Virus record (IMG/VR): IMGVR_UViG_2778261068_000003
Coordinates: 1 to 43,997 of that record
Reading direction: 5' to 3' (one strand)
Length of the DNA stretch: 43,997 bases
Source of the DNA: a virus
Lineage: Duplodnaviria > Heunggongvirae > Uroviricota > Caudoviricetes
The position numbers and the translations under genes are program-made. The notes under the pieces are model-generated. The model worked only from the letters and a program-made list of their open reading frames with translations. It ran no database searches and had not been told where the DNA came from. Each line of letters starts with the position of its first letter. The first letter of the stretch is position 1. Below are positions 816-21,731 of the stretch, piece after piece.

Positions 816-1085
816 AATGACGCCCTCTGGTGGTTTCTAAATAACTCACCACCGACGACGCCAATCGTCTGGTGGTGAACTGTGCAGGGTTGGCGTAACC
901 GGGAAACCAACCGGCGCACCTTTCGGTGCCCCCACACAGCCCACCATAATTCAGATGTGCGTGCGCATACGACAATAAAAAACACGCTCGCGGCGTGTGT
1001 CTGTCGCGGTTTCTATCCGGGACGCCAATCCCGACGCCAGATTTTGCTGGCGTGCGCAGACTATAATCCCGGACGGTTATTTTTG

Positions 1086-2503: not shown

Positions 2504-4963
2504 TTAAAAATCAGCCTGACTCGGGAGCAGTTTTTGCCAGATAGCTGAAACGTATTTTGCCTGGTAACGGGCGTCATCAAGTGCATTGTGGCGCTCGCCT
2601 TCGAATGGAATAGCCGTTCTGGCATCGAAGTCCATGGCTCCTCCCAGTTCAACGATCGTGCGAACATCGCGATCATTGCAGTAGTGCCACGGGCAGGGGA
2701 TTCCCTGTCGTTCGTATGAACGGCGTAAAATTACGTTGTCGAAACTGGTTCCGTTGCTCCAGACCTGAACAAAAAACTCACCAGAGTTTTCGTCGATAAA
2801 TTCCCGTAATTGCAACAGTGCATCATCTAACGGGATTTCATCAGCCAGAATGGCAGACTGCGCTTCGCGCGATTGCTTCAGCCACCACTTAACGGTGTCC
2901 CTGTCAATGACACCGCCAGCAGTATCCAGATCGATGGTCTTACTGAATTCTGGCCCAATATTTCCGGTTTGCGGATCGAAAAATATTGCACCTATTGAGA
3001 TAACTGCAGCATCAGGATTTTTTCCCATGGTTTCCAGGTCGATCATCATATGAGTCCACATTCTGTTACTGGTGGATATGTATTTATGATGACCGTTCGC
3101 CGGAATTAGGGGATTTGCCGTCTCGCCAGTTTCATCACTGCTATTGCCATGCTGAGCGTCACCAGCGCTCTCCTTATGAGAATTCTCAGTGCTTTCCATT
3201 TTCTCCGAATCTTTTTCAGCCAGATTTTCTTCATCGAATGTTTCCTGATATGTTGTGTTACCCATAACAGGCCCGCAGTCCGGACATTTTCCACCGCCAG
3301 CCCGGCTGCAAGTATTGCAGCTTTTTTCAGTCCCCTGTTGTGCTGTTGGCTCTGACTGTTGCACTTCTGGCCCATTTTGTTGCGCATCCGGACTGTTTTG
3401 TTCCGCTTTCTGGTCGTTCTGTTCCGTTTCTTGCTGATTCTGGTACAGAGAATCGCGAGTCTGGATCCCCTCAACCCACTTCGGATCATTCGGGTCGCTA
3501 ATTCCTTCAACAAATTCACCACGTGATGCAGCAAGCACTTTGTCGGCATCAGGCAGATTTTCTGTCTCCATTTTTTTATTTGTTTCGACCGTGTTAACTT
3601 TTACCGGCTCTGGTTGTTCAGAGTTTTGTGCGACACTGGTATTTTGCGGTAAGCCTGTGTATGTGCCATTTTTTCGGGCGACATATTCTTCTTTGGTGAT
3701 TTCAGTAGCCCCGGCAGCCAGCGCCTTATTCAGACCAGACAGTTTGTTTGCGCGACCGTATTTTTCGCCGTCCTTATCGGTAAAGAGGAAGTAGAACGGT
3801 CCTTCACGCTCTACAGATGGTTCAGCTTCCAGTGCGCTTTCATTTTTTTGGGTGCCAGATACTTCTGTTTCCACTGCATCAGTTTGTGTTGCTGACGACC
3901 GGAGAACATCAGCAGGACTCTGATCCGTTTCTTCATCTTCAAACACGCCTTTTGTCGTCAGGTATTCAGTAATGTATTTGTTCAGTGCCACAGGGTCTTT
4001 GTGAATGTCGATCGGACGTTCACGGACAAGGCCAAAAATAGTCTGGCGGCTGTAGCGAAGCGCATCAGGCTGTTTGCGCATTGATGCGGAGATGCGCTTC
4101 CAGTCTTCGCGATCTTTGTCGATAACTTCATTTTTTGCCCAGCGATGGATGCTGCCGTCAATGTTTCCGGCATCAATATCGCCAGGCCAGAGAGCGTAGG
4201 CCAGTTCTTCATCCAGCGTTTTCCATGTCTGCCTGTATTCGCGACGAATGGCGGCAGTGACTGGGTTGATTTTTGCTACTGAGTTTTCAGTGTTCTGCCG
4301 GTTAACTTTGGCGCGGGCGAGATCAACAACAGAAGTATATGCTCCACCTTCTTTGCGCTCCTTTTCCATGCGTTTTTTACGTTCGAGAAAATACGCCTGA
4401 ATGTCGGGCCATTTGGCTGTTGGTTTTAAATCACGTCTGGCATCGTTGATGTACTCAGTCTGACGCTCAGGATACATGGCGTTAATTTCTTTAGTCCTGA
4501 TAATTGCTTCAGTGAGGTGTCCATCAAAAGTCGTCATCTCGTCATCGCCGAGAAGCCCGCTTGCATTGATGACCATATCCACGGTGATGTTTTCATGTGT
4601 ACCGAACCTGACAAGGACAGCAGCCCGCTTGTCTTCAGATAACTGATTAAAGTTAACAGTTTCTGTATCCGGTTCAGGGTCGACCGGAACAAAGGAAGCC
4701 GACTCCTCATTCCAGCGGTTTTCCTGCATATATTCGGAATCCCAGGAATCGAGAGCAGGGCGGGCCATGCCGGGTTTATCCTCGCAGACAAGAAATTTAT
4801 AAGCACAGTCCTGAGCTTCCGGGTATTGTTCCAGAAATAACCAGCTAAATTTGGCTCTTGCCCGGCGTTCGTCGCCTGCTTCAATGGCAGTGGCCACAGG
4901 TCTGGCGCCTTCTGCTGTTGCCTGTTCGTCCGGAATGGCGGCGCAAATAAAGACTTTACTCAT
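2504..4963 (-). CDS. large phage exonuclease-domain protein (C-terminal DnaQ/DEDD-like 3'-5' exonuclease fold)
   Basis: 819 aa; C-terminal MIDLETMG...SNGTSFDNVIL...HNALDDA resembles DEDDh exonuclease motifs; central CxxC...CPDC zinc-ribbon-like motif and a Q/E-rich low-complexity segment; sits at the exo/recombination position. Confidence 0.7.
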   Translation of the reverse strand: MSKVFICAAIPDEQATAEGARPVATAIEAGDERRARAKFSWLFLEQYPEAQDCAYKFLVCEDKPGMARPALDSWDSEYMQENRWNEESASFVPVDPEPDTETVNFNQLSEDKRAAVLVRFGTHENITVDMVINASGLLGDDEMTTFDGHLTEAIIRTKEINAMYPERQTEYINDARRDLKPTAKWPDIQAYFLERKKRMEKERKEGGAYTSVVDLARAKVNRQNTENSVAKINPVTAAIRREYRQTWKTLDEELAYALWPGDIDAGNIDGSIHRWAKNEVIDKDREDWKRISASMRKQPDALRYSRQTIFGLVRERPIDIHKDPVALNKYITEYLTTKGVFEDEETDQSPADVLRSSATQTDAVETEVSGTQKNESALEAEPSVEREGPFYFLFTDKDGEKYGRANKLSGLNKALAAGATEITKEEYVARKNGTYTGLPQNTSVAQNSEQPEPVKVNTVETNKKMETENLPDADKVLAASRGEFVEGISDPNDPKWVEGIQTRDSLYQNQQETEQNDQKAEQNSPDAQQNGPEVQQSEPTAQQGTEKSCNTCSRAGGGKCPDCGPVMGNTTYQETFDEENLAEKDSEKMESTENSHKESAGDAQHGNSSDETGETANPLIPANGHHKYISTSNRMWTHMMIDLETMGKNPDAAVISIGAIFFDPQTGNIGPEFSKTIDLDTAGGVIDRDTVKWWLKQSREAQSAILADEIPLDDALLQLREFIDENSGEFFVQVWSNGTSFDNVILRRSYERQGIPCPWHYCNDRDVRTIVELGGAMDFDARTAIPFEGERHNALDDARYQAKYVSAIWQKLLPSQADF

Positions 4964-5079
4964 TTTGTTTTAACCTCATTACAGATTTAAGGATGAACAA
5001 ATCCCTGCCATTGCTGACATAAATTTATGTTGAATATTTTTATCTGATAAAAATATTGTGTTGATTCAGGCGCTGATAC

Positions 5080-12118: not shown

Positions 12119-12306
12119 AAACGATTTGCGGGAAAAGGACAGTTAAGTAAAATCGCTGCGGGTGCTTGAGGCTATCTGTCTCAGGCATGAACACCAACGG
12201 CAGATAGATAAAAGCCCCACCCGACTATAAATCGAAGTGAGGCCCCTATATGCTCGACACATATAGATTGCCTCTTACGGACCGAAAGGTCAAGGAGAAG
12301 CAGGCT

Positions 12307-12462
12307 ATGAAGCAGCAAAAGGCGATGTTAATCGCCCTGATCGTCATCTGTATTACCGTCGTAGTGACGGCACTGGTAACGAGGAAAGATCTCTGCGAGG
12401 TACGAATCCGTACCGGACAGACGGAGGTCGCTGTCTTCACAGCTTACGAATCTGAGGAGTAA
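12307..12462 (+). CDS. hok: Hok/Gef-family type I toxin
   Basis: MKQQKAMLIALIVICITVVVTALVTRKDLCEVRIRTGQTEVAVFTAYESEE matches the Hok family pattern; AAGGAG Shine-Dalgarno; an in-frame upstream extension (12250) is mok-like; stem-loop directly after the stop. Confidence 0.85.
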   Translation: MKQQKAMLIALIVICITVVVTALVTRKDLCEVRIRTGQTEVAVFTAYESEE

Positions 12463-15843: not shown

Positions 15844-15890
15844 ATTATGGTGATAAAATGCGTATCCTTTGTAGTGTGGTAGAGGACTGT

Positions 15891-16394
15891 AAAATGATAC
15901 GTTTTAGCGAGCTTCGGGAAAAATATGTTGAAGTTATTTCCGGTCAGGTAAATCTGCGCAAAGATCTTGCAATGCTGGTGAAGCGATTGAAAGTTTCGCT
16001 GGAAGAATCGCTGTTATTGCCGGAACGGCAGTGGGTGGATCCAGCAACAGGGAAAAAGGAAAATTATCTTCGTGTCCTGGTAGAGCGCAATGGTGACACA
16101 AAAGAGTCTGATGGAACGACTAACTCACTGTATTTTGATGAAGAGTTAGGAGTGCCCTGTTTGTTTGCGCTTACTCTGGACAGATCCCCGACATCTTTTC
16201 CGAAAACAATAATGTCAGTAGCGGTTCGCGTATCCCGTGAGCGTGATGGGTACCGGATTGCTGTTAACGGTGTGAGCGGGAAGTATGAGTCAATGGTGCC
16301 GATTGATTTTAATGATAATGATCTGGGCGAAGCCTGTGAGCTCATAAAACAAGTGATTCTTAGTGAATTAAATAACAGTTTTCCTGCCTGTTAA
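15891..16394 (+). CDS. hypothetical protein (167 aa), moron downstream of the late promoter
   Basis: Start at MIRFSELREKY with GAGGA Shine-Dalgarno; no motif recognised; at the position occupied by cargo such as stx in other lambdoid phages. Confidence 0.5.
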   Translation, partial: KMIRFSELREKYVEVISGQVNLRKDLAMLVKRLKVSLEESLLLPERQWVDPATGKKENYLRVLVERNGDTKESDGTTNSLYFDEELGVPCLFALTLDRSPTSFPKTIMSVAVRVSRERDGYRIAVNGVSGKYESMVPIDFNDNDLGEACELIKQVILSELNNSFPAC

Positions 16395-16526
16395 ATAAAA
16401 AAGGGCTGTATTTGCGGCCTTTTTCATATCTGCGCCACGCCCGGCGCACATCACATCAGATAACACCACACAAAAGGCATCCGACGCGGTGCCTTTGATG
16501 GGGTGTTTTTTTACGGGCCGCTGGTG

Positions 16527-17526
16527 ACCCTTTTTTAGATTGATTGTTATGTCTGCGTGAAATACACGCATACACTCAATTTCATTTTTTAACAACACCA
16601 TTCATTGACGCCGTTCCGATCAGGGTTGATATTTATACCTGTTTGATGACGCATGTTGATTACCACCTGTAGTTATTATTGCGATTCAAACGGTGCTGAC
16701 CGTAAGGAAAGCATCCAGAAAAAACGACTGCACACTTTATGGTATGTGCGCAGATTTTGCGTGAAGATTACAGCCACTCTCCTGGGACATCGTCTTCATT
16801 CTGCAACTGTGGCTGGTTGCAGATTACATACCATTTTTTGAGGTGGCACAGTGATGGCGTATTGTCGGTATGTCATGCCGGATGAGATGAAAGCGCAATT
16901 CATTATCACCTGAGGCGATACGTCATCACTCTGCCTCTTTGACTGAATCTGAGGTGAGCCCGCGAGGGGTGGTATCAGGCGTGGTATCACGCATACTGTT
17001 TTTTAGCGGCCAGTATGCCCCGGAATATATCCGGCACCTCGACCTTACTCTCGCGATTGTCTGCTTTTGATATGGTCTGTTTGTATTACCTTTCCGCCAT
17101 TTATATGGCGGTTTTTTTTATGCCGGATATTTACGTCAGTGAATAAAAAAGGGAGCGGGCTATTGGGGAGCCCGCCGGACAAGGTCCATTTATCGGTTCT
17201 GACATTACTGAGCGTGAACGCTGGACTGAAACGCTCAAATATCAGTGGGTCATTAGGAAAGAACTACCTCCCATTGGAGTTCCGGGAGGTGGCTTTTTAA
17301 TATCATGAGAAACTGGCAAAGTAAACATAACTATATGAAAAATATATAGTTTTTAGCTTTTTGCGAACATTTCTGATGTTATCTTCGCCGACTTATTTCA
17401 AAATTACTGTCCGTGATGGTTATCTTTAGAAGATATTTGTTTTGCATATTTTATATTTTGTTGTTTTTTTGCACGACGACAAAGTAACCAAAACTGCCAT
17501 CGGCGGTTTTTTTATATCTGAAAAGA
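16527..17526. repeat. tandem duplicated noncoding module, copy A (~1 kb)
   Basis: Begins AGATTGATTGTTATG, as does copy B at 17527; co-linear with copy B with substitutions and indels; its 3' ~100 bp resembles the pR'/tR' region after Q. Confidence 0.8.
17095..17120 (+). terminator. Rho-independent terminator inside repeat copy A
   Basis: CCGCCATTTATATGGCGG hairpin followed by TTTTTTTT. Confidence 0.6.
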
Positions 17527-18450
17527 GATTGATTGTTATGTCAGTGTGAAATATACGCATACATTCAATTTCATTTTTTAACAACACCATTCATTGACAC
17601 CGTTCCGAACCGGGTTGATATTTATACCAGTTCGATAACGCATGTTGATTACCATCTGTGGTTACTATTGTTATTCGAACAGTTGCGGACCGTAAGGAAT
17701 GCATCCAGAACGGGGGCATAGTGCCACCTGCTAACAAAAAAGCGACTATACATTTTTATGGTATGTGCGCGTGCTTGCGCGGAGGTTACAACCACAACCA
17801 CCTCTCTTTCCTCCCTCCATTCTGTAATAGTGGTTGATTACAGTTTGCATACCATTTTTTTGAGGAGATACAGTGATGGCGTATTGCTGGTCTGTCATGC
17901 CCGATGAGATAAAGCGCGACTCACAATTACTCCGTGGCAGTACGCCATCACTGTATAGCTTCATGCAGAATTTGAGGTGAGCCCGTGAGGGGTGATGCAG
18001 GGAACAGCATCACGCATGCTGTTTTGAGGCAGCAGTATGTCCCGGGATATATCCGGCACCTCAACCAGGTTCTCGCGATTGTCTGCTTTTGATATGGTCT
18101 GTTTGTATTACCTTTCCGCCATTTATATGGCGGTTTTTTATGCCGGATATTTACGTCAGTGAATAAAAAGGGGAGCGGGCTATTGGGGAGCCCGCCGGAC
18201 AAGGTCCATTTATCGGTTCTGACATTACTGAGCGTGAAAGCTGGACTGAAACGCTCTGAAATGTCATTTCAGGTCATACCAGTAAGTAAAGAACAGTCTC
18301 CCGAGGATAGAGGCGGGAGACTGGCTTTTTAATATCATAAGAAATCGCCATGGTAAATATAACTATATGAAAAATATATGGTTTTTAGCTTTTTGCGAAC
18401 GTTTCTGACGTTATCTTCGCCGACTTATTTCAAAATTCCTGTCCGTGATG
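17527..18450. repeat. tandem duplicated noncoding module, copy B
   Basis: Second copy of the same module; ends in the leader of the holin-like gene. Confidence 0.8.
18116..18139 (+). terminator. Rho-independent terminator inside repeat copy B
   Basis: Identical CCGCCATTTATATGGCGG hairpin followed by TTTTTT. Confidence 0.6.
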
Positions 18451-18491
18451 ACCAGGTTTACGGTCAGCGGCTCTTTTCATCGGATTTAATC

Positions 18492-18887
18492 ATGCACAGT
18501 TCACTGACCATTACTGGTGCGGTTGCCGCAGGCTCCACCGGAGTCACTCTCTCCACTCTTTTTCCTGAAGCAACTCCGGCGGTGGTGATTTGCTCGCTCG
18601 CCGGAACGGCGCTTTATGTTCTTTCATCCCGCCCGCACAGGGTCTGGAGGCAGATTCTGTTTGCCCTGATTTCTTTTATCGGGGGTATACACAGTGCTGA
18701 AACAGTCTCTGAAATTATCGCGGCGGTGATTAATGCCTGGCTGGTAAAAATTGCGCCGGGTGCATCAGTTCATGTCACGCCCGGGATCGGGGCGCTGGTG
18801 GCTTCAACAATCTGCGTCAGTGTTCTGTTGCGTGTTATGGCGAAATACCAGGATGGCAGGCAGACGAAGAAGGGAGAGGAACAATGA
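18492..18887 (+). CDS. putative holin-like membrane protein
   Basis: Several hydrophobic helices; first gene of the lysis cluster; start placed at 18492 because the upstream in-frame extension lies in the repeat and is interrupted by a stop in copy A; weak Shine-Dalgarno. Confidence 0.45.
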   Translation: MHSSLTITGAVAAGSTGVTLSTLFPEATPAVVICSLAGTALYVLSSRPHRVWRQILFALISFIGGIHSAETVSEIIAAVINAWLVKIAPGASVHVTPGIGALVASTICVSVLLRVMAKYQDGRQTKKGEEQ

Positions 18888-19219
18888 ACTGGGAAAAACT
18901 GGTGCTTTCCGCAAATGCTGTTGTTTGCCTGCTGATAGTACTCCGCCTGATGTTCTATCAGAAAAAGGCGGGCAGCTATCGTTTTATGTACTCCCTGCTT
19001 GCGTGGATGGTGATTGTTGCCGCCGGATGGACAGCAGTACGCATTTTTTATGGTGAATATTCCGGGGCAGATCCGGCAGAGCTTTTTCTGAATTTTTCTT
19101 TCTGTCTGGCTGTCTGGGGAGCTGGCGGAAATATTGCAAAAGCCACTCACTGGAGTGTGCAAAACAGAAAAGTAAAAAGAAGGGGGCAGAGTGAAAAAAA
19201 CGAAAGAGATAATTTTTGA
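18884..19219 (+). CDS. putative holin/antiholin-like membrane protein
   Basis: 111 aa with two or three predicted transmembrane helices and a charged C-terminus; ATG overlaps the upstream stop. Confidence 0.5.
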   Translation: MNWEKLVLSANAVVCLLIVLRLMFYQKKAGSYRFMYSLLAWMVIVAAGWTAVRIFYGEYSGADPAELFLNFSFCLAVWGAGGNIAKATHWSVQNRKVKRRGQSEKNERDNF

Positions 19220-19739
19220 TGCCATCCTGGGAAAAGAGGGCGGCTATGTGGATCACCCTGACGACAAGGGAGGTCCAACAAAGTGGGGCGTGACGCAGAC
19301 GACCGCCCGCGCCCACGGATACCGTGGCGATATGCGCGATTTAACCCGCGAACAGGCACTGGAAATTCTTGAGGCTGATTACTGGTACGGACCACGCTTT
19401 GATCAGGTGGCGGCATTATCCCCTGATATTGCGGCGGAGATGTGCGATACGGGCGTCAACATGGGGCCGACTGTGGCGTCCAGAATGCTTCAGCGCTGGC
19501 TGAACGTATTCAATCTGAGCGGGAAGCTGTATCCCGATATGGACACGGACGGACGCACTGGCCCACGCACGATTAACGCATTACGTGCGTATCTGGAAAA
19601 GCGCGGCCGGGAAGGCGAAATGGTGCTGTTAACAGCACTGAACTGTACTCAGGGCGACCGCTATCTGGAGCTGGCAGAGAAACGGGAGGCTAACGAGTCG
19701 TTTGTCTACGGCTGGATGAAAGAGCGTGTGGCTGTATGA
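19191..19739 (+). CDS. endolysin (GH108-like domain plus PG_binding_3-like domain)
   Basis: ...EGGYVDHPDDKGGPTKWGVTQ... (GH108-like motif) and a C-terminal peptidoglycan-binding-like region; GTG start with AGGGGG Shine-Dalgarno. Confidence 0.85.
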   Translation: MKKTKEIIFDAILGKEGGYVDHPDDKGGPTKWGVTQTTARAHGYRGDMRDLTREQALEILEADYWYGPRFDQVAALSPDIAAEMCDTGVNMGPTVASRMLQRWLNVFNLSGKLYPDMDTDGRTGPRTINALRAYLEKRGREGEMVLLTALNCTQGDRYLELAEKREANESFVYGWMKERVAV

Positions 19740-19879
19740 AGCGAAAACACTGGACACACAGAATGCCGCGAACGGCGGCGAAATGGGCACTGGTAGCGAT
19801 ACTGGTGCCTTTTTTATTGCTCAAAAAACGAAAGAACGGAGGTACGTATGTACGCACTGAAAAAAATTACGGTAACTGA
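19736..19879 (+). CDS. putative small membrane protein (47 aa), possible spanin remnant
   Basis: ATG overlaps the endolysin stop (ATGA); basic N-terminus then hydrophobic WALVAILVPFLLL; below the ORF-track cutoff. Confidence 0.25.
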   Translation: MKRKHWTHRMPRTAAKWALVAILVPFLLLKKRKNGGTYVRTEKNYGN

Positions 19880-20129
19880 AGATGGGCGCCAGGTTGAGGA
19901 AGTGCATGTTCTGGGGGATATGTATCGCCTGGAGTTCTATCCGCGTGACACTCATCTTGCTGCAAAAATTGAGTATTGCCGGGACGGGAATACTCCATGT
20001 ATTCCGGTAGAAAAAGAGGATGAGGCTTACATTACCACACTGACCGGAGACACGGTGCGTTGTATCTGTCGCGGTGACAGTAAAGCCCGGGATGAAATCG
20101 CTAAATGCCGCACTCATACCAGTAAATAA
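19848..20129 (+). CDS. hypothetical protein (93 aa, Cys-rich)
   Basis: GGAGG Shine-Dalgarno 5 nt before ATG; several Cys; last gene of the lysis-region operon. Confidence 0.4.
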   Translation: MYALKKITVTEDGRQVEEVHVLGDMYRLEFYPRDTHLAAKIEYCRDGNTPCIPVEKEDEAYITTLTGDTVRCICRGDSKARDEIAKCRTHTSK

Positions 20130-20249
20130 AAACAAAACTCCGACTGCGCGAACAGCCCAAGGGGGCGGTGATCATGCTCGCCTGATTCGTGAGTAACAGT
20201 AGGCATTACAGCAGCCCTTCAGTGAGGGGCTGCGATAATGATGATTATG

Positions 20250-20690
20250 TTAAGAAAGAGCGAGTCCAATTTTGTTGAAGGCCATTTTTACGCCAACAGC
20301 AATTGTTTGCGCTGATAATTTTATAATAGTTTCAGTCGCGCCCGTTTTTATAGCTGCGGCTAACCTGGCCCCTAACGGGAGGTTTTCAGAGTTAATGCTT
20401 TCAGGTATTGCTCTTAAGGCTTCCAGCCCTTTTTCTGTGAGAACAACATTAAAAAAATCAACACCATTTGTGCCTGATGTGGACAGGTAGCCTGTGTTTG
20501 CAAGCCACTGTACAGAATGGAACGCAATTTCAGAATCTGTGCTGATTTCCTGATGTGTAAAATCCAGATAATCAGCACTGGATTCACCAGTAATGCCCTT
20601 GATGCTCAAATCAACAGGTATTGGGAAGGCCTCATACAAAGTGCCGAAGACTTTCCCTGTATATTCATCAAACTTAACGATATTGGACAT
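20250..20690 (-). CDS. hypothetical protein (146 aa), opposite-strand moron at the bor-equivalent locus
   Basis: Minus-strand ORF between lysis genes and cos; no signal peptide or motif recognised; divergent from the small ORF at 20695. Confidence 0.5.
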   Translation of the reverse strand: MSNIVKFDEYTGKVFGTLYEAFPIPVDLSIKGITGESSADYLDFTHQEISTDSEIAFHSVQWLANTGYLSTSGTNGVDFFNVVLTEKGLEALRAIPESINSENLPLGARLAAAIKTGATETIIKLSAQTIAVGVKMAFNKIGLALS

Positions 20691-20694
20691 AAAG

Positions 20695-20910
20695 ATGGAT
20701 AACTCTCTCTATCAAAAAGAAGAAGAAAAAGCCGCTCTGATTAAAGAGCTTCGCAGTGCGATTAAAGCACAATTACGCGGTGATATGGACTGGGTAAGAA
20801 CGCGGGCGTTTTGGGCAGCGCGATTGCCTGGCATACCGAATGAAGTGCTTGCGGAAGCGCTCGCCTCCGCGATCAGTTACGGTGCGGTGATGATGAGGGA
20901 AAGGCGCTGA
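20695..20910 (+). CDS. hypothetical small protein (71 aa)
   Basis: Starts 5 bp from the divergent gene's start; helical, charged; start taken at the internal Met of the 20593 ORF. Confidence 0.4.
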   Translation: MDNSLYQKEEEKAALIKELRSAIKAQLRGDMDWVRTRAFWAARLPGIPNEVLAEALASAISYGAVMMRERR

Positions 20911-20989
20911 GTCGGCGAGTTATGTGTCAGCGGCGCTTTGGTAATGATAATTGCTCCCATTCTCACGGGTCCTTTCCAGAATCTGAAAC

Positions 20990-21175
20990 ACCGAGGGTAC
21001 GTGTACGCGCAAAAACGCGCTATTTATGAAAATTTTCAGGGAAAAACCAGATCCGTTCTTCTTCTGTCTAACCTGTTGTTTAATAGAATTTTCTTGAAAA
21101 AAAGAAAGGATCTGGCAGCGGTGATTTTTCGCTGAAAAAAGCGTTTTGAGATCCTTTCTTCTTTTTGTGAGGAAT
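20990..21175. other. cos site (cosN/cosB-like) of the lambda type
   Basis: GCTATTTATGAAAATTTTC and CCGTTCTTCTTC blocks match the lambda left-end cos region; AAAGAAAGGATCT...AGATCCTTTCTT inverted repeat; ends ~10 bp before the Nu1-like start. Confidence 0.6.
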
Positions 21176-21182
21176 ATGTGCC

Positions 21183-21731
21183 GTGAAGGTTAACAAAAAG
21201 AAACTAGCGGAAATTTTTGAGTGCGATGTCAGAACAATCACTGGCTGGCAAAGTCAGGGGCTGAGAGTTTTGTCGGGGGGAGGCAAAGGTATCGAGGCCA
21301 TGTTCAATACAGCAGAAGCCATTGAGTGGTATGCGCAGCGGGAAAAAGATATCGAAAACGAAAAGCTCCGCAAAGAACTGGAAGATTTGCGTGCGGCTGC
21401 AGAATCAGATTTACAACCCGGCACCATTGACTATGAACGCTACCGGCTCACCAAAGCACAGGCTGACGCACAGGAGCTGAAAAATGCCCGCGAAGAAGGG
21501 CTGGTGCTGGAAACGGAATTGTTTACCTTCATTCTGCAACGTGTGGCACAGGAGATTTCGGGGATACTTGTACGTGTGCCGCTGACATTACAGCGTAAAT
21601 ATCCGGATATTTCACCATCACACCTTGATGTGGTGAAAACTGAAATCGCGAAAGCCTCCAATGTTGCAGCTAAAGCCGGTGAAAACGTGGGCAGGTGGAT
21701 TGATGATTTCAGACGCACAGAAGGCAGCTAA
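21183..21731 (+). CDS. terminase small subunit (lambda Nu1-like)
   Basis: [27 protein letters not shown]...[28 protein letters not shown]... is co-linear with lambda gpNu1; GTG start. Confidence 0.9.

What the first reader, a model, noticed from the sequence alone, without database searches (positions are those of the whole stretch)
20250..20910. Divergent two-gene module at the bor-equivalent position between lysis genes and cos
A 146-aa minus-strand gene and a 71-aa plus-strand gene have start codons 5 bp apart, in the slot between the lysis cassette and cos where lambda carries the opposite-strand moron bor. Neither protein shows a signal peptide or known motif, so this is not a bor-like lipoprotein. 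The divergent small-plus-larger layout would fit a regulator/effector or toxin/antitoxin-like pair, or a small defence or lysogenic-conversion module with its own promoters, independent of late transcription.
Basis: inference. Interest (0 to 1): 0.6.

Follow-up and report, generated by a model that had tools for sequence, protein, structure and literature searches.

The report
Portable head-to-head two-gene prophage cassette
The two genes are real and form a 704-bp accessory cassette, conserved and carried between unrelated temperate phages in their cargo hotspots, with start codons 4 bp apart on opposite strands; what it does is still unknown and no known defence, toxin or virulence family matches it.

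Summary
The minus-strand gene is 20250..20690 (146 aa). The plus-strand gene is 20695..20910 (71 aa). Four bases separate the start codons, and cosN lies about 85 bp further on. Both genes are under purifying selection.

Comparison with related prophages delimits a discrete 704-bp cassette, 20241..20944. The same head-to-head pair occurs in three places: between Q and the holin in Yersinia prophages, between lysis and cos in Escherichia/Citrobacter prophages, and in the gpA-portal (old/tin) hotspot of P2-like phages. In the P2-like hotspot it sits next to a retron, a GmrSD enzyme or an AriA/NsnB-like ATPase.

The large protein belongs to phrog_2266, an uncharacterised family of at least 1,270 clusters. 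It has a winged-helix fold but is acidic, so it is unlikely to bind DNA, and it ends in basic amphipathic helices. The small protein is a three-helix bundle. Neither matches Pfam, NCBIfam or PADLOC.

Each gene's ribosome-binding site lies in the other's first codons, so the two mRNAs must overlap at their 5' ends. My best guess, at low confidence, is a phage-conflict cargo module with mutually exclusive, antisense-coupled expression. No promoter was found, and the function is not established.

The parts
20250..20690 (-). Large gene, 146 aa. An acidic winged-helix protein with a basic amphipathic C-terminal helical pair; member of phrog_2266.
20695..20910 (+). Small gene, 71 aa. A three-helix-bundle protein with the invariant motif G[ED]MDWVRTRAFW, co-oriented with the late operon.
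   Evidence: ORF and start codon. 21 homologues at 68-99% identity in Escherichia, Citrobacter, Enterobacter, Serratia and Yersinia. AF2 pLDDT 88, three helices. No informative fold match. dN/dS 0.04-0.17.
20676..20712 (.). Head-to-head junction: CAT-aaag-ATG. Each gene's Shine-Dalgarno-like purine run lies in the first codons of the other: GGA in Ser2 (TCC) of the large gene, and GAGAG opposite Ser4-Leu5 of the small gene.
   Evidence: Read directly from the sequence. The junction 'ATATTGGACATnnnnATG' is invariant in all lambdoid-type loci. P2-like loci have overlapping CATG in 55 of 55. The depositors of phage Midge annotated the RBS of each gene inside the other.
20241..20944 (.). Extent of the mobile cassette (704 bp). 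TAATGAT occurs at both edges (20236-20242 and 20942-20948).
   Evidence: An E. coli prophage lacking the pair (L001) matches the window up to 20240 and again from 20945. Prophages carrying the pair in other lysis/terminase contexts share 20191-21043 (L110), 20175-21500 (L109) and 19500-21041 (L107). The repeat was read.
20211..20236 (.). G+C-rich hairpin (gcagccc...gggctgc) just outside the cassette, 13 nt beyond the large gene's stop. It has no T-run on either strand.
   Evidence: Sequence. The covering stretch 20201-20239 is 100% identical in Salmonella phage Fels-1. The hairpin is also present in E. coli prophages without the cassette. It was not flagged as an intrinsic terminator.
20996..21007 (.). 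cosN (context only). It marks the right end of the virion chromosome, about 85 bp after the small gene.
   Evidence: Alignment with lambda bases 1-210.

Best explanation
This is a self-contained 704-bp accessory ('moron') cassette that temperate phages exchange between their cargo hotspots. It encodes two small non-enzymatic binding proteins.

Shown:
- The cassette is discrete and portable.
- Both genes are under purifying selection.
- The large protein is an acidic winged-helix protein with basic amphipathic C-terminal helices.
- The small protein is a three-helix bundle.
- The start codons abut (CATnnnnATG) or overlap (CATG) in every lambdoid, P2-like and island locus examined.

Inferred from that geometry: each ribosome-binding site lies inside the other gene, so the two mRNAs must be complementary over both translation-initiation regions. 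Expression should therefore be mutually antagonistic, through transcriptional interference and/or antisense pairing, like a minimal excludon or the face-to-face C/Cox switch of P2. In this window, Q-dependent late transcription runs antisense through the large gene and sense through the small gene. That predicts the large gene is on in the lysogen, and that the small gene is on and the large gene off during lytic growth.

Inferred function (weakest step): the large protein is the payload. It would act by binding a protein of the host or of a competing phage, giving superinfection exclusion or defence-type cargo. The small protein would be its partner or antagonist.

My confidence by step is about 0.9 for a real portable module, about 0.5 for antisense-coupled expression, and about 0.3 for a conflict payload with the small protein as antagonist.
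For: Portability and unity:
- The same pair lies between Q/pR'-tR' and the holin in Yersinia ruckeri prophages.
- It lies between lysis and cos/terS here and in E. coli, E. albertii and Citrobacter.
- It lies in the gpA-portal hotspot of P2/186-like prophages of Salmonella, Klebsiella, Serratia and E. coli.
- It lies in chromosomal islands.
- Cassette edges were mapped at 20241 and 20944.

Junction: it is invariant while the large protein diverges to 23% identity.

Counts among fetched loci:
- 86 have an intact large gene plus a small gene.
- 20 have the small gene with the large gene deleted or truncated, at three independent breakpoints: 39 codons left (L005-7), about 5 codons (L012/19) and 19 codons (L087-97).
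- None have the large gene without a head-to-head partner in lambdoid or P2-like prophages.

Rates: the large protein diversifies (about 40% identity between clades) while the small one stays at 70-85%. The distances are uncorrelated (rho 0.23), so the halves are shuffled.

Neighbourhood: the gpA-portal site is the known P2 defence hotspot (PMC13586616; bioRxiv 10.1101/2024.10.15.618418). Neighbours there hit PADLOC models: RT_VI retron 5e-104, GmrSD/Orf5 2e-118, NsnB/AriA-like ATPase 2.5e-54. An Ivy lysozyme inhibitor sits in the same lambdoid slot.

Distribution is patchy: parts of the cassette occur in only 2 of 5,426 complete E. coli genomes.

The excludon principle is described in PMC12288877.
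Against: - No PADLOC, Pfam or NCBIfam family matches either protein.
- No enzymatic or transmembrane feature is present.
- No promoter for either gene is better than chance, so lysogenic expression of the large gene is unproven.
- In P2-like phages the orientation relative to late (P-Q) transcription is the opposite of that here. 'Small gene = late-expressed' is therefore not general.
- The small partner is not one family. The lambdoid and P2 types show no detectable homology. It shrinks to 44 aa or 20-21 aa beside an intact large gene, which argues against an obligatory protein antidote.
- In Mu-like prophages the large family follows mor on the same strand. That suggests lytic-cycle expression and a role in phage development.
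- Most lambdoid loci were retrieved through the small protein, which biases the co-occurrence counts for that clade.
Confidence: 0.33

Rival explanations
1. It is an anti-defence or host-takeover pair used by the phage itself. The acidic winged-helix protein would sequester a host protein such as a nucleoid, restriction or recombination factor. The cassette sits at the chromosome end that I recall (not checked here) enters the cell first.
For: The family is acidic, pI about 4.8-5.0. The fold resembles protein-binding winged helices such as RPA32 wH and the cullin WHB domain. In Mu-like prophages the gene is co-transcribed after mor, so it is expressed in the lytic cycle. Here and in P2-like phage Midge the module lies at the right end of the virion DNA. 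The Midge depositors noted an HHpred similarity to T7 gp5.5, an H-NS inhibitor.
Against: The gp5.5 similarity was not reproduced by profile comparison, probability below 1%. In the Yersinia prophages the pair is not near a chromosome end. Anti-defence genes are rare in P2 hotspots: 28 of 1,511 P2-like elements (PMC13586616). Here the large gene opposes every lytic transcript.
Confidence: 0.2
2. It is a small genetic switch that regulates neighbouring hotspot cargo or late genes. The two proteins and their overlapping transcripts would set expression of the genes downstream of each arm.
For: In P2-like loci, recognised defence genes lie directly downstream on the same strand. GmrSD follows the large gene with a 35-nt gap. 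An AAA_15/NsnB-like ATPase or a YobI ATPase follows the small gene. The head-to-head architecture resembles the P2 C/Cox and 186 CI/Apl switches (my own knowledge). The large protein has a winged-helix fold.
Against: The large protein is acidic with a net-negative 'recognition' helix, and the small protein has no HTH signature. In many loci nothing lies downstream on either arm. The small gene is followed by terminator-like hairpins in P2-like phages or by cos here. The cassette moves without any cargo.
Confidence: 0.15
3. It is a toxin/antitoxin-like addiction pair. The large protein would be toxic, for example through its amphipathic C-terminal helices, and the small protein or its antisense transcript would neutralise it.
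For: Orphan small genes are common, and an orphan large gene was never seen in lambdoid or P2-like prophages. The mutual 5' antisense layout recalls divergently encoded type I systems such as tisB/istR (my own knowledge). The C-terminal helices are hydrophobic and basic.
Against: No toxin or antitoxin domain is present. The genes are not an operon. The large gene is intact beside 20- to 44-aa remnants of the small gene, and it stands alone after mor in Mu-like prophages. The maximum hydropathy is below the transmembrane threshold.
Confidence: 0.12
4. The two genes have unrelated functions. The small gene would be an accessory late gene, for example linked to packaging, and the large gene an independent moron that happens to insert against it.
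For: The small gene occurs alone in the lysis-to-terS slot as a plain late-operon gene. Amino-acid distances of the two genes are uncorrelated. The small-protein types differ between phage groups.
Against: The exact junction geometry is conserved in 86 loci, in three kinds of genomic site and in several phage types. The pair relocates as a unit with tight edges. In the Yersinia phages the small gene is far from cos and the terminase genes.
Confidence: 0.1

Closest known systems
Lambda bor (and other morons between Rz and cos, or between Q and S)
   Same: The slot is the same: between the lysis genes and cos. The larger gene lies on the strand opposite to late transcription. The unit is small, discrete and patchily distributed.
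   Different: The proteins are not lipoproteins: no signal peptide, lipobox or Bor Pfam hit. There are two genes instead of one. No flanking promoter or terminator of its own was found.
Cargo of the P2 old/tin hotspot (gpA-portal)
   Same: Homologous pairs occupy exactly this hotspot in P2/186-like prophages, beside a type VI retron, GmrSD or an AriA/NsnB-like ATPase (PMC13586616).
   Different: Neither protein matches any PADLOC model. No enzymatic domain is present. No phenotype is known.
Excludons and face-to-face promoter switches (Listeria excludons; P2 C/Cox; 186 pR/pL)
   Same: These are divergent genes whose transcripts must overlap at their 5' ends, which predicts mutually exclusive expression (geometry; concept from PMC12288877).
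   Different: The overlap here is extreme: start codons are 4 bp apart or overlap by 2 nt, and each RBS lies inside the other ORF. Transcripts have not been mapped. No repressor-like DNA-binding protein is evident.
Winged-helix proteins such as B. subtilis YjcQ (PDB 2hgc), the RPA32 wH domain and the cullin WHB domain
   Different: The sequence match is not significant (E=0.083). The N-terminal helix and the C-terminal helical pair have no counterpart. The domain is acidic, unlike DNA-binding MarR/Rrf2/GntR winged helices.
Type II toxin-antitoxin and effector-immunity pairs
   Same: It is a two-gene small-protein module on mobile elements. The asymmetry fits: the small gene persists alone, and the large gene is not seen alone in lambdoid or P2-like prophages.
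   Different: The genes are divergent rather than an operon. No known toxin or antitoxin domain is present. The large gene is intact beside decayed small ORFs.

Membership tests
phrog_2266 (uncharacterised phage protein family) | Full-length match to the family profile | tested here: met
   E=1.7e-33, residues 1-138 aligned to profile positions 2-143 of 144. An exhaustive profile search finds 1,270 clusters at E<=1e-3.
Bor-like lipoprotein (lambda bor) | Signal peptide with lipobox; Bor family domain | tested here: not met
   The N-termini MSNIVKFDEY and MDNSLYQKEE are polar. Maximum hydropathy is 1.08 and 1.03. There is no Pfam hit.
Known anti-phage defence systems (PADLOC-DB v2) | Protein matches a defence-system HMM | tested here: not met
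   No families at E<=1 for either protein.
Known anti-phage defence systems (PADLOC-DB v2) | Residence in recognised defence hotspots next to defence genes | tested here: met
   The pair lies in the P2 gpA-portal hotspot beside an RT_VI retron, GmrSD/Orf5 and an NsnB/AriA-like ATPase (PMC13586616).
Known anti-phage defence systems (PADLOC-DB v2) | Protects cells against phage infection | not testable with these tools
   This needs plaque or efficiency-of-plating assays with the cloned cassette.
Type II toxin-antitoxin module | Co-transcribed bicistronic operon with a recognisable toxin or antitoxin domain | tested here: not met
   The genes are divergent. No toxin or antitoxin family is found in Pfam, NCBIfam or PADLOC.
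Type II toxin-antitoxin module | Toxicity of one product, neutralised by the other | not testable with these tools
   Only indirect evidence is available. Orphan small genes are tolerated (20 loci), and no orphan large gene occurs in lambdoid or P2-like prophages. However, the large gene is intact beside 20- to 44-aa small ORFs.
Winged-helix DNA-binding transcription factor (MarR/PadR/Rrf2-like) | Winged-helix fold | tested here: met
Winged-helix DNA-binding transcription factor (MarR/PadR/Rrf2-like) | Basic recognition helix and wing; family-level sequence match | tested here: not met
   The recognition-helix segment is net -2 and the family median pI is 4.8-5.0. No HTH Pfam family passes threshold.
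Excludon / face-to-face promoter switch | Divergent neighbouring genes whose transcripts overlap | tested here: inconclusive
   The geometry forces an overlap of the translation-initiation regions. Transcription start sites are unknown, and no promoter scores above chance.
T7 gp5.5-like (DUF2675) H-NS inhibitor | Profile similarity to gp5.5 | tested here: not met
   hhalign of the family alignments against T7 gp5.5 gives probability 0.2% and 0.1%. gp5.5 is not among the PDB sequence hits.

The most novel reading that the evidence does not exclude
The conserved element is the head-to-head junction itself. On this reading it is a minimal, portable, antisense-coupled bistable switch that phages use to express an acidic winged-helix binding protein in only one of the two life-cycle states. 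That protein would be the founding member of a new family of at least 1,270 clusters of non-enzymatic anti-phage, or anti-defence, effectors that act by sequestering a target protein.
Probability: 0.15. Interest if true: 0.7.

Novelty: new member of a known kind. Interest (0 to 1): 0.45.

Why it matters
Prophage cargo hotspots are the main hunting ground for new immune and counter-immune systems. This cassette is a compact 704 bp and easy to clone. It is widespread as a family but wholly uncharacterised, and it keeps company with retrons, GmrSD enzymes and AriA-like ATPases.

Its obligatory 5' mRNA overlap also offers a clean natural model for how two genes can be made mutually exclusive without any intergenic control region.

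If the large protein proves to be a defence or anti-defence effector, it would assign a function to more than a thousand protein clusters found in lambdoid, P2-like and Mu-like prophages.

Tried and rejected
- **Family searches.** Pfam, NCBIfam and PADLOC scans of both proteins, and of every member of the family alignments, gave nothing above threshold. The most frequent weak hit was RecJ_C, in 22 of 55 members with best E 0.004.
- **PDB sequence search.** The profile search gave only a non-significant YjcQ hit, E=0.083.
- **T7 gp5.5 lead.** The similarity noted in the Midge annotation was not reproduced.
- **Homology between small-protein types.** None was detected between the lambdoid and P2 types.
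- **Promoter hunting.** The consensus scan and my own PWM with shuffles found no site better than chance. A candidate leftward promoter, TTCAGA-17-GAGAAT at 20959-20987, is matched or beaten by 22% of shuffles, so I reject it as evidence.
- **Embedded nucleotide constraint.** No suppression of synonymous variation was seen along the small gene apart from the junction.
- **Rfam.** The region has no RNA family.
- **Collection scans.** The genome-contig scan returned 1 locus and the metagenome-contig scan 3. The broad alignments were too diverse to seed a scan.
- **Transmembrane or tail-anchor reading of the C-terminus.** Hydropathy is below threshold in the window protein.

Full report
**1. Observation**

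The window is a lambdoid prophage. Around the finding lie:
- two holins, at 18378-18887 and 18884-19219;
- a GH108/PG_binding_3 endolysin, at 19191-19739;
- a 93-aa ORF of phrog_33497, at 19848-20129;
- the two genes in question;
- Nu1, at 21183-21731, and the large terminase subunit.

The minus-strand ORF is 20250..20690 (146 aa). The plus-strand gene starts at ATG 20695 and ends at 20910 (71 aa). Four bases (aaag) separate CAT from ATG. Aligning 20960-21200 with lambda bases 1-210 puts the cohesive end (cosN) at about 20996, followed by a cosB-like region. The pair therefore occupies the slot where lambda has bor on the opposite strand.

**2. Both genes are real**

- The small protein has 21 close homologues (68-99% identity) in Escherichia, Citrobacter, Enterobacter, Serratia and Yersinia. 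All begin at the same methionine and share an invariant G[ED]MDWVRTRAFW core.
- The large protein has few close relatives, but it is a full-length member of phrog_2266 (E=1.7e-33).
- An exhaustive profile search finds 1,270 clusters at E<=1e-3 and 533 at E<=1e-10, nearly all 130-150 aa.
- Pairwise dN/dS is 0.04-0.17 for the small gene and 0.05-0.45 for the large gene wherever dS is not saturated.

**3. The pair is a discrete, portable unit**

Edges:
- An E. coli prophage without the pair (L001) matches the window up to 20240 and again from 20945.
- Prophages carrying the pair with a different lysis cassette or a different small terminase share only the stretch around it.
- The cassette is therefore 20241..20944. 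It ends 9 bp and 34 bp beyond the two stop codons, and TAATGAT occurs at both edges.

Other locations of the same pair:
- In Yersinia ruckeri prophages it sits between the Q antiterminator with its pR'/tR'-like signals and the holin, the position of stx in Stx phages.
- In P2/186-like prophages and phages (Salmonella, Klebsiella, Serratia, E. coli phage Midge), a 23-25%-identical large protein sits head to head with a 63-aa gene in the gpA-portal hotspot.
- It also occurs in chromosomal islands.

In complete E. coli genomes it is very rare. Two of 5,426 genomes have any part of it: one carries a pair and one an orphan small gene.

**4. The junction is the most conserved feature**

- All lambdoid-type loci read ATATTGGA-CAT-nnnn-ATG.
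- All 55 P2-like loci from one scan, plus L036, L099, L103, L112 and L118-120, have overlapping CATG.
- The purine runs that can serve as Shine-Dalgarno sequences lie in the partner's first codons. These are TCC (Ser2) of the large gene and TCN-CTN (Ser4-Leu5) of the small gene.
- This explains why two small-protein types with no detectable homology both start M-x-N-S-L. The Midge depositors annotated the RBSs in the same way.
- It follows that the two mRNAs must be complementary across both initiation regions. This is an inference from geometry, not a measurement.

**5. Co-occurrence**

Among the fetched loci:
- 86 have an intact large gene with a head-to-head small gene (32 lambdoid type, 54 P2 type).
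- 20 keep the small gene while the large gene is deleted or truncated.
- The truncations have three independent breakpoints: 39 codons left in E. albertii, about 5 in Citrobacter, and 19 in eleven P2-like contigs.
- The large gene without such a partner occurs only in Mu-like prophages, where it directly follows mor on the same strand.
- The partner can also be very short: 44 aa or 20-21 aa.

The lambdoid loci were mostly fetched through the small protein, so only the P2-like counts (44 of 44) are free of that bias. Small and large amino-acid distances are uncorrelated (rho 0.23). The large protein falls into clades about 40% identical to each other, while the small protein stays at 70-85%.

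**6. The proteins**

Large protein:
- The AF2 model (pLDDT 84) has an N-terminal helix, a winged-helix core with the conserved W-L..GY and LTEKGLE.L motifs, and two C-terminal helices.
- The best PDB sequence hit is YjcQ at E=0.083. The viral structure library gives nothing at E<=0.001.
- The family is acidic (median pI 4.8-5.0). The would-be recognition helix is net negative, and the C-terminal helices are net +4.
- No segment reaches a transmembrane hydropathy threshold in the window protein.
- I therefore read it as a protein-binding module rather than a DNA-binding regulator.
- The gp5.5 similarity noted by the Midge annotators was not reproduced.

Small protein:
- It is a three-helix bundle (pLDDT 88) with no informative fold match.

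**7. Neighbourhood**

The gpA-portal site is the classical old/tin defence hotspot of P2 (PMC13586616; bioRxiv 10.1101/2024.10.15.618418). Neighbours of the pair there match PADLOC models:
- RT_VI retron, 5e-104;
- GmrSD/Orf5, 2e-118;
- NsnB/AriA-like ATPase, 2.5e-54.

A YobI ATPase is a further neighbour. In a lambdoid relative an Ivy lysozyme inhibitor shares the slot. This is guilt by association only.

**8. Expression**

- No sigma-70-like promoter scores above chance for either gene, either inside the partner gene or just beyond it.
- There is no Rfam family in the region.
- In this window the small gene is co-oriented with the late operon, and it persists as a plain late gene when the large gene is lost.
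- The large gene is antisense to late transcription.
- In P2-like phages the orientation relative to the P-Q late operon is reversed. There the small gene is followed by terminator-like hairpins.
- How the large gene is transcribed is unexplained.

**9. Interpretation**

The best-supported reading is a portable cargo cassette whose two products are expressed in a mutually antagonistic way because their 5' mRNA regions overlap. This is like a minimal excludon (PMC12288877) or the P2 C/Cox layout, which I cite from my own knowledge.

I propose, with low confidence, that the large protein is a non-enzymatic payload active in phage-host or phage-phage conflict, and that the small protein is its partner or antagonist.

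The rivals cannot be excluded: an anti-defence or host-takeover function, a cargo-regulating switch, a TA-like addiction module, or two unrelated genes. The Mu-like context and the decayed small ORFs speak against a strict toxin-antidote relation.

**10. Novelty and score**

This is an uncharacterised member of a known kind, prophage hotspot cargo, with an unusual and strongly conserved head-to-head architecture. It is worth a bench test, but nothing here shows a new mechanism. Interest: 0.45.

Noticed in passing
window 12160-12309 (+): Rfam match to the sok antitoxin RNA (105 bits, E=6e-23). This indicates a hok/sok-type type I toxin-antitoxin locus inside the prophage.
   Followed up: no
window 868-1066 (-): Rfam matches to C4 antisense RNA (868-951), isrK (977-1053) and the c4 a1/b1 target (1014-1066), next to the integrase end. 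This looks like a P1/P7-type C4/antirepressor (IsrK-like) control element in a lambdoid prophage.
   Followed up: no
window 16400-18378: About 2 kb between the last long ORF before the lysis genes (15858-16394) and the first holin contains no ORF of 110 aa or more, and no tRNA. This is the slot where Stx phages carry stx, and where the Yersinia prophages carry the cassette studied here.
   Followed up: no
window 20211-20236: A G+C-rich hairpin without a T-run lies just outside the cassette. The covering stretch 20201-20239 is 100% identical in Salmonella phage Fels-1, and the hairpin is present in phiP27 and in E. coli prophages that lack the cassette. Its role is unknown.
   Followed up: partly
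window 20236-20242 and 20942-20948: The heptamer TAATGAT occurs at both edges of the 704-bp cassette. It could be a short-homology recombination joint or a coincidence.
   Followed up: no
window 19736-19879: After the endolysin there is only a 47-aa ORF with a hydrophobic stretch. No obvious Rz/Rz1 spanin pair was seen.
   Followed up: no
L087-L097 (P2-like viral contigs), about 5001-5060: Eleven contigs keep the 63-aa small gene plus exactly the first 19 codons of the large gene, followed by a stop and unrelated DNA. This is one shared deletion joint.
   Followed up: yes
L118-L120 (metagenome contigs), about 2930-3000: A 34-35%-identical large gene has, head to head with CATG overlap, only a 20-21-aa ORF (MSQNS[DE]KKALNVQ...). 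That ORF resembles the first helix of the 71-aa small protein.
   Followed up: partly
L100-L102, L113, L004 (Mu-like prophages): Members of the large-protein family lie immediately downstream of mor on the same strand, overlapping it by 8 nt in L101/L102. As I recall (not checked here), phage Mu has its C gene at that position.
   Followed up: partly
L117 1344-1772 and L012 5220-5648: An Ivy-family lysozyme inhibitor (annotated in L117) occupies the same lysis-to-cos slot next to the cassette or next to the orphan small gene. The L012 protein was not checked against Ivy; it shows only a signal-peptide-like N-terminus.
   Followed up: no
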